Source of the DNA: the human T2T-CHM13v2.0 reference genome, Homo sapiens
DNA: 64,000 bases
Direction: 5' to 3' (one strand)
Assembly (NCBI RefSeq): GCF_009914755.1
Contig: NC_060928.1
Numbering within the stretch: position 1 is the stretch's first letter; each line of letters opens with the position of its first letter. Below, piece by piece: positions 27,261-49,257 of this stretch. The position numbers and the translations under genes were made by a program. The notes below the pieces were generated by a model. That model worked only from the letters and a program-made list of their open reading frames with translations, did not search any database and was not told where the DNA came from.

Positions 27261-30200
27261 ATCATTTCTTTTTATTTTTTATTTTTATTTTTTATTATAC
27301 TTTAAGTTCTAGGATACATGTGCACAATATGCAGGTTTGTTACATATGTATACATGTGCCATGTTGGTGTGCTGTACCCGTTAACTGGTCATTTACATTA
27401 GGTATATCTCCTGATGCTATCCCTTCCCCCTCCACCCACCCCACGACAGGCCCCGGTGTGTGATGTTCCCCACCCTGTGTCCATGTGTTCTCATTGTTCC
27501 GTTCCCACCTATGAGTGAGAACATGTGGTGTTTGGTTATCTGTCCTTGCAATAGTTTGCTGAGAATGATGGTTTCCAGCTTCATCCATGTCCCTACAAAG
27601 GACATGAACTCATCCTTTCTTATGGCTGCATAGTATTCCATGGTGTATATGTGCCACATTTTCTTAATCCAGTCTATCATTGTTGGACATTTGGGTTGGT
27701 TCCAAGTCTTTGCTATTGTGTATAGTGCCGCAATAAACATACGTGTGCATGTGTCTTTATAGCAGCTTGATTTATAATCCTTTGAGTATATACCCAGTAA
27801 TGGGATGGCTGGGTCAAATGGTATTTCTAGTTCCAGATCCTTGAGGAATCACCACACTGTCTTCCACAATGGTTGAACTAGCTTACAGTCCCAGCAACAG
27901 TGTAAAAGTGTTCCTATTTCTCCGCATCCTCTCCAGCACCTGTTGTTTCCTGACTTTTTAATAATCGCTATTCTAACTGGTATGAGATGGTATCTCATTG
28001 TGGTTTTGATTTACATTTCTCTGATGGCCAGTGATGATGAGCATTTTCTCATATGTCTGTTGGCTGAATAATGTCTTCTTTTGAGAAGTGTCTGTTCATA
28101 TCCTTTGCCCACTTTTTGATGGGGTTGTTTGATTTTTTCTTGTAAATTTGTTTAAGTTCTTTGTAGATTCTGGATATTAGCCCATTGTCAGATGGGTAGA
28201 TTGTAAAACTTTTCTCCCATTCTGTAGGTTGTCTGTTCACTCTGAAGGTAGTTTCTTTTGCTGTGCAGAAGCTCTTTAGTTTAATTAGATCCCATTTGTC
28301 AATTTCGGCTTTCGTTGCCATTGCTTTTCGTGTTTTAGACATGAAGTCTTTGCCCTTGCCTATGTCCTGAATGGTATTGCGTAGTTTTCTTGTAGGGTTT
28401 TTATGGTTTTAGGTCTGACATTTAAGTCTTTAATCCATCTTGAATTAATTTTTGTATCAGGTGTAAGGAAGGGATCCAGTTTCAGCTTTCTACATATGGC
28501 TAGCCAGTTTTCCCAGCACCATTTATTAAATAGGGAATCCTTTCCCCATTGCTTGTTTTTGCCAGGTTTGTCAAAGATCAGATGGTTGTAGATGTGTGGT
28601 ATTATTTCTGAGGGCTCTGCTCTGTTCCATTGGTCTATATCTCTGTTTTGGTAAAAAGTACCATGCTGTTTTGGTTACTGTAGGCTTGTAGTATAGTTTG
28701 AAGTCAGGTAGCGTGATGCCTCCAGCTTTGTTCTTTTGTCTTAGGATTGACTTGGTGATGCGGGCTCTTTTTTGGTTCCATATGAACTTTAAAGTAGTTT
28801 TTTCCAATTCTGTGAAGAAAGTCATTGGTAGCTTGATGGGAATGGCATTGAATCTATAAATTACCTTGGGCAGTATGGCCATTTTCACAATATTGATTCT
28901 TCCTACCCATGAGCATGGAATGTTCTTCCATTTGTTTGTGTCCTCTTTTATTTCGTTGAGCCATGGTTGGTAGTTCTCCTTGGAGAGGTCCTTCACATCC
29001 CTTGTAAGTTGGATTCCTAGGTATTTTATTCTCTTTGAAGCAGTTGTGAATGGGAGTTCACTCATGATTTGGCTCTCTATCTGTTATTGGTGTAGATGAA
29101 TGCTTGTGATTTTTGCACATTGATTTTGTATCCTGAGACTTTGCTGAAGTTGCTTATCAGCTTAAGGAGATTTTGGGCTGAGACAATGGGGTTTTCTAAA
29201 TCTACAATCATGTCATCTGCAAACAGGGACAATTTGACTTCCTCTTTTCCTAATTGAATGCCCTTTATTTCCTTCTCCTGCCTGATTGCCCTGGCCAGAA
29301 CTTCCAACTCTATGTTGAATAGGAGTAGTGAGAGAGGGCATCCCTGTCTTGTGCCAGTTTTCAAAGGGAATGCTTCCAGTTTTTGCCCATTCACTATGAT
29401 ATTGGCTGTGGGTTTATCATAAATAGCTCTTATTATTTTGAGATATGTCCCATCAATACCTAGTTTATTGAGAGTTTTTAGCATGAAGGGCTGTTGAATT
29501 TTGTCGAAGGCCTTTTCTGCATCTATTGAGATAATTATGTGGTTTTTGTCTTTGGTTCTGTTTATATGATGGATTACTTTTATTGATTTGCATATGTTGA
29601 ACCAGCCTTGCATCCCAGGATGAAGCCAACTTGATCGTGGTGCATAAGCTTTTTGACGTGCTGCTGGATTCGGTTTGCCAGTATTTTACTGAGGATTTTT
29701 GCATCGATGTTCATCAGGGATATTGGTCTAAAATTCTCTTTTTTTGTCGTGCCTCTGCCAGGCTTTGGTATCAGGATGATGCTGGCCTCATACAATGAGT
29801 TAGAGAGGATTCCCTCTTTTTCTATTGATAGGAAGAGTTTCAGACAGAATGGTACCAGCTCCTCTTTGTACCTCTGGTAGAATTCAGCTGTGAATCCATC
29901 TGGTCCTGGACTTTTTTTGGTTGGTAGGCTATTAATTATTGCCTCAATTTCAGAGCCTGCTATTGGTGTATTCAGGGATTCAACTTCTTCCTGGTTTAGT
30001 CTTGGGAGGGTGTATGTGTCCAGAAATTTATCCATTTCTTCTAGACCACAGTGCAATCAAACTAGGACTCAGAATTAAGAAACTCACTCAAAACCACTCA
30101 ACTACATGGAAACTGAACAACTTGCTCCTGAATGACTACTGGGTAAATAACGAAATGAAGGCAGAAATAAAGATGTTCTTTGAAACCAATGAGAACAAGG

Positions 30201-30610
30201 ACACAACATACCAGAATCTCTGGGACACATTTAAAGCAGTGTGTACAGGGAAATATATAGCACTAAATGCCCACAAGAGAAAGCACGAAAGATCTAAAAT
30301 TGACACCCTAACATTACAATTAAAACAACTAGAGAAGCAAGAGCAAACGCATTCAAAAGCTAGCAGAAGGCAAGAAATAACTAAGATCAGAGCAGAACTG
30401 AAGGAGGTAGAGATACAAAAAAACCATTCAAAAAATCCGTGAATCCAGGAGCTGGTTTTTTGAAAAGATCAACAAAATTGATAGACCGCTAGCAAGACTA
30501 ATAAAGAAGAAAAGAGAGAAGAATCAAACAGATGCAATAAAAAATGATAAAGGGGATATCACCACTGATTCCACAGAAATACAAACTACCATCAGAGAAT
30601 ACTATAAACA
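27261..30610 (-). mobile_element. L1PA4/5-type element, 5'-truncated, with 5' inversion (27261-30043 minus; 30044-30610 inverted to plus)
   Basis: T-rich tail and 3'UTR TTATACTTTAAGTTCTAGG..CATTTACATTAGG, with frameshifted ORF2 pieces on minus. Orientation flips at CTTCTAGA|CCACAGTGC. Degenerate TSD CAAATTCATTAAAGGTTTTTTTT (27238-27260) / CAGATTCACTTAAGGTTTTTTT (30609-30630). Confidence 0.95.
28049..30043 (-). pseudogene. Disrupted L1 ORF2 (Z-domain, RT and downstream region)
   Basis: ORF-track pieces [32 protein letters not shown] and MSELPF.. lie in different frames, separated by stops and frameshifts. Confidence 0.9.
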
Positions 30611-31285
30611 GATTCACTTAAGGTTTTTTTCCTGCATCCAATAAGCTAAAATGTAAAACACACTATTTCCTAATATAACTTGCAATAAAAAATATCAAGT
30701 GACCAATATTAATTTTGTTCAGATAGCCTAACAGTTTTGCTTTGTAAATTCTAAGTTCTCAGTTATTCCCTCAGAGAAAGAGTAGGGGATACCAATGTTC
30801 AATTATTCATCACGTAAAATAGTCACACAAGGAACTGAGTTTTCCTTGCTCCCTGGAAAAGATTTTAGGGACTCTTGATGTTAGTAAGGGATTGGGGAGA
30901 AGAAGGGAGCCAGATGTGTGCATCTCCACAAAAGTGGAGAAGGTGAGTGCCTGCTTCTCCAGGGGACAATCCACAAACACAGTAGTCAACAATATGGCAC
31001 TGCTCCATGAAACCCAATAGGAAGCTACAGTGTGCTTGAAGAAAAGTAAACCATAGGGTCTGTAAAGTCTAAAATTGATGATACATTATTCCATTATTCC
31101 TAAAGAGTTAGACCATCTTACCAGAGTACTGTGTTCAGTTTAAACCACCATATTTTTACATTTGAGAGAATGAGGAGCATTGTGCATACTGTGGTCTTTT
31201 CGTTTTTCTTTTCTTTCTTTCTTTTTTTTTTTTTTTAATAAAAAGCTGCATAGAAACATTGTAGAGGTCTACCTGGGAAACTATT

Positions 31286-48191: not shown

Positions 48192-48425
48192 TAGACTGGA
48201 TTAAGAAAATGTGGCACATATGCACCATGGAATACTATGCAGCCATAAAAAATGATGAGTTCATGTCCTTTGTAGGGACATGGATGAAGCTGGAAACCAT
48301 CATTCTCAGCAAACTATTGCAAGGACAAAAAACCAAACACCGCATGTTCTCACTCATAGGTGGGAATTGAACAGTGAGAACACATAGACACAGGAAGGGG
48401 AACATCACACACTGGGGACTGTTGT

Positions 48426-48448
48426 GGGGTGGGGGGAGGGGGGAGGGA
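48426..48448 (+). other. L1 3'UTR poly-G tract (G-quadruplex-forming motif)
   Basis: Four consecutive G-runs in GGGGTGGGGGGAGGGGGGAGGG. Confidence 0.7.
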
Positions 48449-49257
48449 TAGCTTTAGGAGAAATACCTAATGCTAAATGATGAGTTAATGGGTGCAGCAC
48501 ACTAGCAGGGCACATGTATACATATGTAACTAACCTGCACATTGTGCACATGTACCCTAAAACTTAAAGTATAATAATAATAAATAAATAAATAAATAAA
48601 TAAATAATGGAAAAGAGCTTAACATTAACAAGAATTAAAATTTTAAGGCAAAATTAAATATTGCATGAAATATAGATAGATTTAGTGGATGCAAGGAGGA
48701 TTACCTTGAACTCTTAAAATAACCCATCGGATAGCCACCTTTTCTGTAACACACAAGCAGTAAATATGACTAGGGGAGAAGTAAGAAGTCACCGGGAAGA
48801 AGAGAAAAACAACAGTCTCATGGAAAGTGCAGAGACCAAGTGATGCATGTTTGACTCCAGGACTTCACTGTGAAGGCTTCCTAAATATCAAACCACTAAA
48901 TCATTTCTAAAATACTGGGATTTTTAGAGAATGCTGGTTAAACACAGAGGAGTGAATACATGAGTCAATCTCTGCCCACTCTTTAAACACCAAAATGATA
49001 GAGGAGAAATAAAAACAAAGTAAACCCTCAATGACAAAACAAACAAAAAGAACTAGAGGGAAACAACAGCAGGGAGGGAATATCAATAAATACTTTGTAG
49101 GTTAGAAGTCTATAAATGAAAGGACACTGAGTTTGCTGAGAAGGAAAAGCTAAATTCTTATGTATCTATACAAATAGATAGTGGTAAAGCAAATGATAAC
49201 ATTCCTTAGAACTGAAGATAAGCTTGAGAATGGAAACAAAATGTTCTATTAAACATC

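What the first reader, a model, noticed from the sequence alone, without database searches (positions are those of the whole stretch)
27261..48600. Two oppositely oriented L1s ~16 kb apart share private mutations in patches: apparent ectopic gene conversion between inverted-repeat arms
Seen: the minus L1 (27261-~29775) and the plus L1 (46099-~48570) form a ~2.5 kb inverted repeat. They differ at many positions and have different 3'UTRs (L1PA4/5-like vs L1PA3-like), inversion points and TSDs, so they are independent insertions. Even so, 28635-28840 is identical to the reverse complement of ~47028-47233 apart from one extra base in a T run. Both copies carry the same unusual changes relative to the recalled L1PA ORF2 consensus: RIAKSILSQK>[10 protein letters not shown] (47112/28756, 47129/28739), YKAT>YKPT (47184/28684) and TACTGGTAC>TACTTTTAC, W>F (47212-47213/28653-28657). 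Isolated shared changes lie elsewhere: NIVL>xIEL (46563/29309), TTIR>TTFR (47622/28246) and GATCTAGAA>GATCTGGAA (48035/27834). Most are non-CpG transversions, so parallel mutation is unlikely. Inference: repeated short conversion tracts between the arms, as expected from fold-back or ectopic pairing.
Basis: partly seen in the sequence, partly recalled or inferred. Interest (0 to 1): 0.8.

Follow-up and report, generated by a model that had tools for sequence, protein, structure and literature searches.

The report
Gene conversion between two inverted L1s
Two old, independently inserted L1 retrotransposon copies lying head-to-head 16 kb apart in a GABRB1 intron have swapped a stretch of about 100-200 bases, a clean but ordinary example of copy-and-paste repair between dispersed repeats.

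Summary
The minus L1 (arm A, 27271-29772) and plus L1 (arm B, 46099-48600) are 93.0% identical. They have different target-site duplications and different 5'-inversion junctions.

A 28840-28635 equals B 47028-47233 apart from one extra T at 28657. An identical run this long is unlikely by chance (P = 5e-5 to 5.5e-4).

The tract carries four substitutions, each rare among related copies: 47129 A, 47184 C and 47212-13 TT. None of 117 other L1PA copies carries more than one. The 44-mer joining C and TT has one exact match in the genome, arm B.

Across the arms, 7 rare alleles are shared where 0.34 are expected. No control copy or pair reached 7.

One listed change, 47112 (A>T in the protein), is not private. 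It is a CpG transition present in 27 of 78 copies.

Subfamily markers in the tract (47111/47112/47118 = CAT) point to the younger arm B as donor and the older arm A as acceptor.

The three isolated shared alleles are only suggestive. An apparent second tract (A to B) was rejected.

This is a non-crossover ectopic gene conversion, a known process. No assembly-independent or ape check was possible.

The parts
27241..27260 (.). Arm A target-site duplication, copy at the L1 3' (poly-A) side
   Evidence: ATTCATTAAAGG plus a T run. It matches 30612-30630 at 10 of 12 bases plus the T run.
27261..30043 (-). Arm A: body of the older-type L1PA copy (3' UTR, ORF2 3' part). 27271-29772 is homologous to arm B.
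   Evidence: Differs from the majority of its 10 nearest old-type copies at 88 of 2482 sites (3.55%).
30088..30610 (+). Arm A 5'-inverted segment
   Evidence: Matches the old L1 at 34702-34181 in the opposite sense to the body.
30612..30630 (.). Arm A target-site duplication, second copy
28635..28840 (-). Converted tract in arm A (the acceptor), maximal extent. Minimal extent is 28654-28757. The extra T is at 28657.
   Evidence: Identical to B 47028-47233. Carries the younger-type CAT haplotype at 28757/28756/28750, while A has the old-type allele at the marker sites just 3' of it, starting at 28633.
45253..45271 (.). Arm B target-site duplication, 5' copy
   Evidence: AAATAATGGAAAAGAGCTT, identical to 48602-48620.
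45272..46098 (-). Arm B 5'-inverted segment
   Evidence: Collinear with minus-oriented L1s. Reverse match to the third L1, 96.3% over 831 columns.
46099..48601 (+). Arm B: body of the younger, transitional-type L1PA copy
   Evidence: Differs from the younger-type majority at 71 of 2481 sites (2.86%).
47028..47233 (+). Tract in arm B (the probable donor), carrying 47129 A, 47184 C and 47212-13 TT
48602..48620 (.). Arm B target-site duplication, 3' copy
46563..46563 (+). Isolated shared rare allele (T>A), paired with 29309. Possible micro-tract of at most 31 bp.
   Evidence: The 25-mer has 24 exact matches among 8467 matches at up to 1 mismatch. The allele is also in the third L1, 35 kb downstream.
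47622..47622 (+). Isolated shared rare allele (A>T), paired with 28246. Possible micro-tract of at most 34 bp.
   Evidence: The 25-mer has 22 exact matches among 12007. Flanks.
48035..48035 (+). Isolated shared allele (A>G), paired with 27834. Weakest case, with at most 13 bp between discordant sites.
   Evidence: 4 of 78 other copies carry G.

Best explanation
Two L1PA copies inserted independently into this GABRB1 intron, in opposite orientation and with their 5' ends facing each other. The older one is arm A (minus strand). The younger one is arm B (plus strand).

Later, a break or gap in arm A within 28635-28840 was repaired using arm B, 16 kb away, as template. The outcome was a non-crossover (non-allelic, or ectopic, gene conversion). 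It copied 103-206 bp of B into A, including B's rare alleles 47129 A, 47184 C and 47212-13 TT and B's younger-type CA at 47111-12. After that, the new T run gained or lost one T in one of the arms.

Shown: the tract, its statistical excess, the rarity of the haplotype, the independent origin of the arms, and the absence of a crossover.

Inferred: the donor-to-acceptor direction, the repair mechanism (synthesis-dependent strand annealing or short-patch heteroduplex repair, from established knowledge of mammalian recombination), and the timing.
For: (1) Independent insertions. The arms have different TSD pairs and different 5'-inversion junctions. Seventeen alignment columns separate the two hit groups, and each arm carries its own group's allele at them.

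(2) Tract. The longest identical run is 183 columns (207 without the T-run indel) against a permutation mean maximum of 83. P = 5.5e-4 and 5e-5.

(3) Nearest-neighbour test. In 47 sliding windows of 150 columns, the arms are strict mutual nearest neighbours among 79 sequences only in the 3 windows covering B 46991-47239. Elsewhere A ranks 7th to 77th for B.

(4) Shared rare alleles. Seven sites are shared against 0.34 expected from 62 rare alleles in A and 41 in B over 2473 sites. Poisson P(>=6) = 1.7e-6.

Empirical controls:
- 52 younger-type copies share 0-2 of A's rare alleles (mean 0.48).
- 24 older or intermediate copies share 0-3 of B's rare alleles (mean 0.62).
- None of 1248 control pairs reaches 7.

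(5) Not a sub-lineage.
- The best other genomic matches to the 206 bp are 98% (40 scored of 2709 candidates).
- Of 117 other copies, 103 carry none and 14 carry one of the four rare tract alleles.
- The 44-mer with C and TT has 1 exact match in the genome (arm B) and 4 at one mismatch. None of those four has both C and TT.
- The 47129-A 24-mer has 56 exact matches among 8375 at up to 1 mismatch.

(6) Direction. Both arms read CAT at 47111/47112/47118. That haplotype occurs in 0 of 10 and 1 of 39 old-type copies, 4 of 14 intermediate copies and 21 of 52 younger-type copies. Immediately 3' of the tract, at 47234, 47266, 47267, 47270, 47273, 47283 and 47306, A carries the old-type allele.

(7) No crossover. 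Each element keeps its own matched TSD pair, and A stays old-type on both sides of the tract.
Against: There was no assembly-independent check. Reads, other human assemblies and ape orthologues were not available, so a polishing or assembly error cannot be excluded from the sequence alone.

The direction rests mainly on one CpG-linked marker pair (47111-12). 47118 is polymorphic in old-type copies (A 18, T 18, G 3 of 39). The likelihood ratio is only about 20.

The arms are 7% diverged, a level at which homeologous recombination is expected to be inefficient (established knowledge, not tested here).

The transfer is not GC-biased. Of the alleles moved into A, most are strong-to-weak changes.

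The genomic copies were taken from the 40 best-scoring candidates of each search, so they are not a random sample of L1PA copies.
Confidence: 0.85

Rival explanations
1. Multi-partner micro-conversion. The 206-bp tract is only the clearest of many very short exchanges among a local cluster of L1PA copies. The cluster is arm A, arm B and a third plus-strand L1 35 kb downstream of B, perhaps with a fourth 1.2 Mb away. On this reading the isolated shared alleles are also conversions. This extends the best explanation rather than replacing it.
For: Three shared rare alleles between A and B lie outside the tract. That many or more was reached by 0 of 52, 1 of 24 and 20 of 1248 controls.

The third L1 (L045/L171, colinear and not 5'-inverted, so a separate insertion) shares 6 rare substitutions and a 3-bp deletion with B. 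The 51 other younger-type copies share 0-2.

46563 A is in 24 of 8467 matching copies genome-wide, and three of the 24 are A, B and this neighbour.

Only B and the neighbour appear in more than one of the exact-match lists for 46563 A, 47301 G and 47706 G.

The copy at C4:46030011-46030147 has TT plus 47301 G and is 99% identical to B 47190-47326.
Against: The single-marker patches allow tracts of only 13-34 bp.

The longest identical run between B and the neighbour (176 columns) is only marginal, P = 0.03.

B and the neighbour could be siblings from one rare source element.

The exact k-mer lists miss copies that have a nearby private mutation.

48035 G is in 4 of 78 copies and may be coincidence.
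Confidence: 0.4
2. Assembly or polishing artefact. Reads from one arm were used to correct the other, writing B's bases into A.
For: Nothing positive.
Against: The arms differ at 163 events elsewhere, and the tract is bounded sharply by A-specific alleles.

The tract is not a verbatim copy, since A has one extra T.

The source is stated to be a complete long-read assembly of an effectively haploid genome (hub annotation; assembly properties recalled, not tested).
Confidence: 0.05
3. Shared ancestry. Both arms descend from a rare L1 sub-lineage that already carried these alleles.
For: Single alleles recur in other copies: TT in 3 other copies, 47129 A in 54 others, 47622 T in 20 others.
Against: The arms belong to different subfamily types and are otherwise far from each other (A ranks 7th to 77th of 79 for B outside the tract).

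No other copy carries more than one of the four rare tract alleles (0 of 117).

A has old-type alleles directly beside the tract.

The C+TT 44-mer is unique to arm B.
Confidence: 0.03
4. Independent parallel mutation at the same sites in the two arms.
For: Expected to give about 0.3-0.6 coincidences per pair. It can therefore account for one of the isolated sites, most plausibly 48035.
Against: Seven shared sites, six of them non-CpG transversions, with five clustered in a run that has no discordant substitution.
Confidence: 0.02

Closest known systems
Gene conversion between nearby LINE-1 copies seen in human long reads (Frith and Khan 2018, PMC5829575; passages read)
   Same: They report conversion between L1PA3 LINEs (their Figure 4S). 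[quoted passage not shown] The substrate (dispersed L1PA copies) and the process are the same as here.
   Different: Those are polymorphic rearrangements detected as read-versus-reference differences. Here the event is inferred within one assembly from shared rare alleles. The arms are of different subfamily types and 7% diverged, and there is no inversion.
Non-allelic gene conversion among neighbouring Alu elements (Aleshin and Zhi 2010, as summarised in Fawcett and Innan 2019, PMC6598467; passages read)
   Same: Sequence exchange after insertion between dispersed retrotransposon copies, with higher rates for close copies (stated as within <10 kb). A younger-type sequence overwrites part of an older element, as in the Kass et al. 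1995 case cited there.
   Different: That work concerns Alu (300 bp), not L1. The present partners are 16 kb apart and inverted.
Polymorphic human inversions mediated by inverted L1PA repeats (Aguado et al. 2014, PMC3961182; passages and table rows read)
   Same: The architecture matches. One example is HsInv0341, with 6.2-kb inverted L1PA3 arms spanning 20.8 kb.
   Different: Those arms recombine by crossover and invert the spacer. Here both TSD pairs are intact and the arms are not chimeric, so no net crossover has occurred in this haplotype.
Interlocus gene conversion in human segmental duplications (preprint 10.1101/2022.07.06.498021; search listing and start of abstract only)
   Same: Non-reciprocal transfer of paralogue-specific variants between non-allelic copies.
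   Different: That work concerns segmental duplications, and I did not read how it treats high-copy repeats. The arms here are independent retrotransposon insertions, not duplicated segments.

Membership tests
Non-allelic (ectopic) gene conversion, non-crossover | Two paralogous sequences at distinct loci of independent origin | tested here: met
   Different TSD pairs. Different 5'-inversion junctions. Seventeen group-separating alignment columns at which each arm carries its own group's allele.
Non-allelic (ectopic) gene conversion, non-crossover | A contiguous tract whose identity significantly exceeds that of the flanks | tested here: met
   Run of 183 or 207 columns, P = 5.5e-4 or 5e-5 in 20,000 permutations. 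Mutual nearest neighbours only in 3 of 47 windows.
Non-allelic (ectopic) gene conversion, non-crossover | Derived alleles shared inside the tract and absent from relatives of both partners | tested here: met
   0 of 117 copies carry more than one of the four rare alleles. The C+TT 44-mer has 1 exact genomic match. Seven shared rare alleles against 0.34 expected.
Non-allelic (ectopic) gene conversion, non-crossover | Non-reciprocal transfer with identifiable donor and acceptor | tested here: met
   A carries the younger-type CAT haplotype (1 of 49 old-type copies, 21 of 52 younger-type copies). B shows no old-type allele inside the tract. Strength is moderate, with a likelihood ratio of about 20.
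Non-allelic (ectopic) gene conversion, non-crossover | Pre-conversion state visible in an orthologue or in other haplotypes | not testable with these tools
Non-allelic (ectopic) gene conversion, non-crossover | Support from reads, independent of the assembly | not testable with these tools
   No reads were available.
NAHR crossover between inverted repeats (inversion of the spacer) | Chimeric arms with swapped inner halves and mismatched TSD pairs | tested here: not met
   Each element keeps a matched TSD pair. At the 38 sites that separate the arms' nearest copies, A carries its own type's allele at 32 and is not split into halves.
Shared L1 sub-lineage (descent) | The same allele combination in other members, and both arms of one subfamily type | tested here: not met
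5'-inverted L1 insertion (the name 'twin priming' is recalled, from no call) | A-rich tail, TSD, and a 5' segment inverted relative to the body | tested here: met
   Both arms.

The most novel reading that the evidence does not exclude
Dispersed L1PA copies that lie tens of kilobases apart (and possibly up to a megabase) on one chromosome exchange many very short patches, from single markers to about 200 bp, despite 5-7% divergence and in either orientation. Arm A, arm B, the third L1 35 kb downstream and perhaps the copy at C4:46.03 Mb would form such an exchange network. If this is general, a measurable share of apparently private mutations in old L1 copies are imported. That would bias L1 age and subfamily inference, and neutral-rate estimates drawn from repeats.
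Probability: 0.3. Interest if true: 0.55.

Novelty: new member of a known kind. Interest (0 to 1): 0.3.

Why it matters
It gives one well-controlled example of non-crossover gene conversion acting between L1 copies of different age, 7% diverged, 16 kb apart and inverted. It also gives a probable direction, from the younger copy into the older one.

It has no evident functional consequence. Both copies are dead, 5'-inverted fragments in an intron.

The practical lessons are methodological:
- Shared rare alleles between neighbouring repeats should not be read as common descent.
- Apparent mosaicism of an L1 must be checked against transitional subfamilies before being called conversion. One such call failed here.

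The conversion also created a 183-bp perfectly identical stretch between inverted repeats.

Tried and rejected
(1) A second tract from A to B.

Arm B carries old-type alleles that are nearly absent from the 52 younger-type copies: GCCC at 48289/48290/48297/48310 (0 of 52), C at 47810 (1 of 52) and A at 48411 (0 of 52). They fall inside or near a 74-bp identical run, 48254-48327. This looked like conversion from A.

I rejected it as unnecessary. Among the 39 best genomic matches to B 48254-48575, L125 combines GCCC and 48411 A with B's 3'-UTR alleles at 48505 and 48531, and L121 does so with GCCT. A third copy, L159, is homologous to B from 47398 onward and shows B's mosaic at 14 of the 15 marker sites it covers. 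Arm B therefore belongs to a transitional sub-lineage.

(2) Younger-type alleles in A outside the tract (46597, 46684, 46962, 47316, 48541). These are either CpG sites, or polymorphic among old-type copies, or alleles that changed early in the lineage. They are not evidence of conversion.

(3) The alignment with 14 added copies. Twelve of the 14 turned out to be 5'-truncated, so their upstream columns were forced alignments of unrelated DNA. The counts were discarded. The null was recomputed on the original 78 copies.

(4) Control pairs with 4-6 shared rare alleles. They mostly involve copies such as L049, L066 and L078, whose BLAST matches begin at query position 199-330 and whose 5' columns are probably flank. 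I kept them in the count of 1248 pairs, which makes the test conservative.

(5) The search of earlier findings was not open.

(7) A literature search for a known inversion at this locus ('GABRB1' with 'inversion polymorphism') gave 2 papers. By title and abstract start they are unrelated to this locus, and I did not read them.

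
Full report
**What is there**

The window holds two L1PA fragments in opposite orientation, with their 5' ends facing each other. Arm A is on the minus strand, and its body at 27271-29772 aligns with arm B. 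Arm B is on the plus strand at 46099-48600. blastn gives 92.996% identity over 2513 columns, with 154 mismatches and 13 gap openings.

Each arm is a separate 5'-inverted insertion:
- **Arm A.** The body continues to 30043 and is followed by an inverted piece at 30088-30610.
- **Arm B.** An inverted piece at 45269-46098 is followed by the body from 46099.

Each has its own target-site duplication:
- **Arm A.** ATTCATTAAAGG plus a T run at 27241-27260, against ATTCACTTAAGG plus a T run at 30612-30630.
- **Arm B.** AAATAATGGAAAAGAGCTT at 45253-45271 and again at 48602-48620.

These are independent insertions, not a duplicated segment. Because each element still has its own matched pair, no net crossover or inversion has occurred between the arms.

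**The observation**

A global alignment shows A 28840-28635 identical to B 47028-47233 apart from one extra T in A at 28657. Over 2491 compared columns there are 163 discordant events. The longest identical run is 183 columns, or 207 if the T-run indel is ignored. The next longest are 102, 74 and 60.

In 20,000 random placements of the discordant events, the mean longest run was 83. Runs as long as the observed ones occurred with frequency 0.00055 for 183 columns and 0.00005 for 207.

**Reference copies**

The genome holding the window could be searched. I fetched two sets of copies:
- the 39 best matches to arm A (L001-L039), at 90-95% identity;
- the 39 best matches to arm B (L040-L078), at 94-96% identity.

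I aligned all 80 sequences. These copies are the best of 40 scored candidates per search, so they are not a random sample.

**Rarity of the shared alleles**

Seven positions are identical in the two arms and carried by at most 4 of the 78 other copies: 46563 A, 47129 A, 47184 C, 47212 T, 47213 T, 47622 T and 48035 G. Six are transversions and one is a transition. None is at a CpG.

With the same threshold, A has 55 and B has 34 further rare alleles over 2473 sites. That predicts 0.34 same-base coincidences. Poisson P(>=6) = 1.7e-6.

Empirical controls agree:
- 52 younger-type copies share 0-2 of A's 62 rare alleles (mean 0.48).
- 24 older or intermediate copies share 0-3 of B's 41 rare alleles (mean 0.62).
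- Among 1248 older-by-younger control pairs the maximum is 6, and none reaches 7.

The allele is in 27 of 78 copies and lies in a CpG. A typical younger copy also reads RITKS.

**Genome-wide counts**

| Pattern (arm B allele) | Exact matches | Matches within the mismatch limit |
|---|---|---|
| 44-mer with 47184 C and 47212-13 TT | 1 (arm B) | 331 (<=2 mismatches) |
| 24-mer with 47129 A | 56 | 8375 (<=1 mismatch) |
| 25-mer with 47622 T | 22 | 12007 (<=1 mismatch) |
| 25-mer with 46563 A | 24 | 8467 (<=1 mismatch) |

For the 44-mer, four matches have one mismatch. Three of them have TT without C, and one has C with TTG. Arm A is missed by this pattern because of its extra T.

The best other matches to the 206-bp tract are 98% identical (40 scored of 2709 candidates). 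After adding 39 further old-type copies (L079-L117), 103 of 117 copies carry none of the four rare tract alleles, 14 carry one, and none carries more.

Each allele alone recurs at about 0.2-0.7%, but the combination exists only in these two arms.

**Tract structure**

I ran 47 sliding windows of 150 columns. The arms are strict mutual nearest neighbours among 79 sequences only in the three windows covering B 46991-47239.

**Direction**

I sorted the copies by their alleles at variable sites into three groups:
- an old cluster of 10 copies, which contains A's closest relatives;
- an intermediate group of 14;
- a younger group of 52.

Inside the tract both arms read C, A, T at 47111/47112/47118. 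That haplotype is found in:
- 0 of 10 old-cluster copies;
- 1 of 39 independently fetched old-type copies;
- 4 of 14 intermediate copies;
- 21 of 52 younger copies.

Immediately 3' of the tract, at 47234, 47266, 47267, 47270, 47273, 47283 and 47306, arm A has the old-type allele.

So A carries a younger-type insert in an old-type background. Arm B is the probable donor and arm A the acceptor, with a likelihood ratio of about 20. This rests largely on one CpG-linked marker pair.

The minimal tract is 47111-47213 (103 bp). The maximal tract is 47028-47233 (206 bp). It could extend 5' to 46980 if A's private T at 28841 arose after the event.

**Timing (inference)**

There is no substitution difference across 206 bp. 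That gives a 95% upper bound of about 6-15 million years for assumed rates of 1.2e-9 to 0.5e-9 per site per year. The rates are assumed, not measured here.

All B-side rare alleles in the tract are shared, which places the event in roughly the later half of B's residence.

**What did not hold up**

Arm B carries old-type alleles at 47810, 48289/90/97/310 and 48411. These are present in 0-1 of the 52 younger copies. This first looked like a second tract, from A to B.

The best genomic matches to B 48254-48575 include L125, which combines these alleles with B's 3'-UTR alleles at 48505 and 48531, and L121, which does so with GCCT in place of GCCC. L159 shows B's mosaic at 14 of the 15 marker sites it covers, from 47398 onward. 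Arm B is therefore a member of a transitional sub-lineage, and no conversion is needed to explain these alleles.

The younger-type alleles of A outside the tract are CpG sites or polymorphic markers.

**The isolated shared alleles**

46563, 47622 and 48035 lie between discordant sites only 31, 34 and 13 bp apart. Three or more such coincidences occur in 0 of 52, 1 of 24 and 20 of 1248 controls. Some are probably real, but none can be shown individually.

**A third and a fourth copy**

One of the 22 other genomic carriers of 46563 A is a third L1, at C4:47265163-47267656 (L045/L171). It is 35 kb downstream of B, outside the window, on the plus strand. It is colinear rather than 5'-inverted, so it is a separate insertion.

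It shares with B six rare substitutions (46405 G, 46563 A, 47301 G, 47582 C, 47706 G, 48503 T) and a 3-bp deletion at 46592. The 51 other younger-type copies share 0-2.

Only B and this neighbour appear in more than one of the exact-match lists for 46563 A (24 matches), 47301 G (16) and 47706 G (62). The longest identical run between B and the neighbour, 176 columns, is only marginal (P = 0.03).

Local conversion and sibling origin both remain possible, but proximity favours conversion.

A further copy at C4:46030011-46030147, 1.2 Mb away, has TT plus 47301 G and is 99% identical to B 47190-47326. I could not fetch it.

**Mechanism**

The sequence shows a short, non-reciprocal, non-crossover transfer between non-allelic homologous sequences on one chromosome.

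From established knowledge of mammalian double-strand-break repair, the likely route has three steps:
- a break in arm A;
- strand invasion into arm B and limited synthesis;
- annealing back (synthesis-dependent strand annealing).

Whether pairing was intrachromatid fold-back, between sister chromatids or between homologues cannot be told from the sequence.

**Known or new**

Conversion between L1PA3 LINEs, and an inversion between oppositely oriented L1PA7 LINEs with conversion at its edges, are reported from human long reads (PMC5829575, passages read).

Inversions mediated by inverted L1PA3 arms are catalogued (PMC3961182, passages and table rows read).

Gene conversion between nearby Alu copies is reviewed in PMC6598467 (passages read).

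My searches found no description of this particular locus. Supplementary tables of inversion or conversion catalogues were not examined.

This is a new, well-controlled instance of a known process, in dead intronic repeats. The interest is modest.

Noticed in passing
L171:3091-5857 (G000 C4:47264890-47267656, 35 kb downstream of arm B, outside the window): A third L1PA copy on the plus strand. It is colinear, so it is a separate insertion. It shares 6 rare substitutions and a 3-bp deletion with arm B, while the 51 other younger-type copies share 0-2. It also carries 46563 A, as both arms do. Either conversion with B or origin from a common rare source could explain this.
   Followed up: partly
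G000 C4:46030011-46030147 (1.2 Mb upstream on the same chromosome): An L1 copy carrying both the TT double change (47212-13 equivalent) and 47301 G. It is 99% identical to arm B 47190-47326, the closest match in the genome for that stretch. It could not be fetched.
   Followed up: partly
G000 C3:36088810-36088920: An L1 copy that appears in both the 47622-T and the 47706-G exact-match lists. It therefore shares two of arm B's rare alleles 84 bp apart, which hints that some of B's 'private' alleles are inherited from a small source lineage.
   Followed up: no
window 47810, 48289-48310, 48411: Arm B combines older-type alleles here with younger-type alleles elsewhere. The same combinations occur in a few other genomic copies (L121, L125, L159), so B belongs to a transitional L1PA sub-lineage that is poorly represented among its 39 best full-length matches.
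   Followed up: yes
window 31784-35789: A much older L1 (about 72-78% identical to arm A and to B's inverted piece) lies on the minus strand in the spacer between the arms. Another old fragment is at 50650-51872.
   Followed up: no
window 28653-28657: The GG>TT change created a run of T. Arm A has five T where arm B has four, which is the only difference inside the tract. It shifts the residual ORF2 frame in A after ...TAWYF.
   Followed up: yes
window 46739 and 46592: Arm B has a private 5-bp deletion (ACAAA missing after 46739). It also has a 3-bp deletion after 46592, which is shared only with the third L1.
   Followed up: partly
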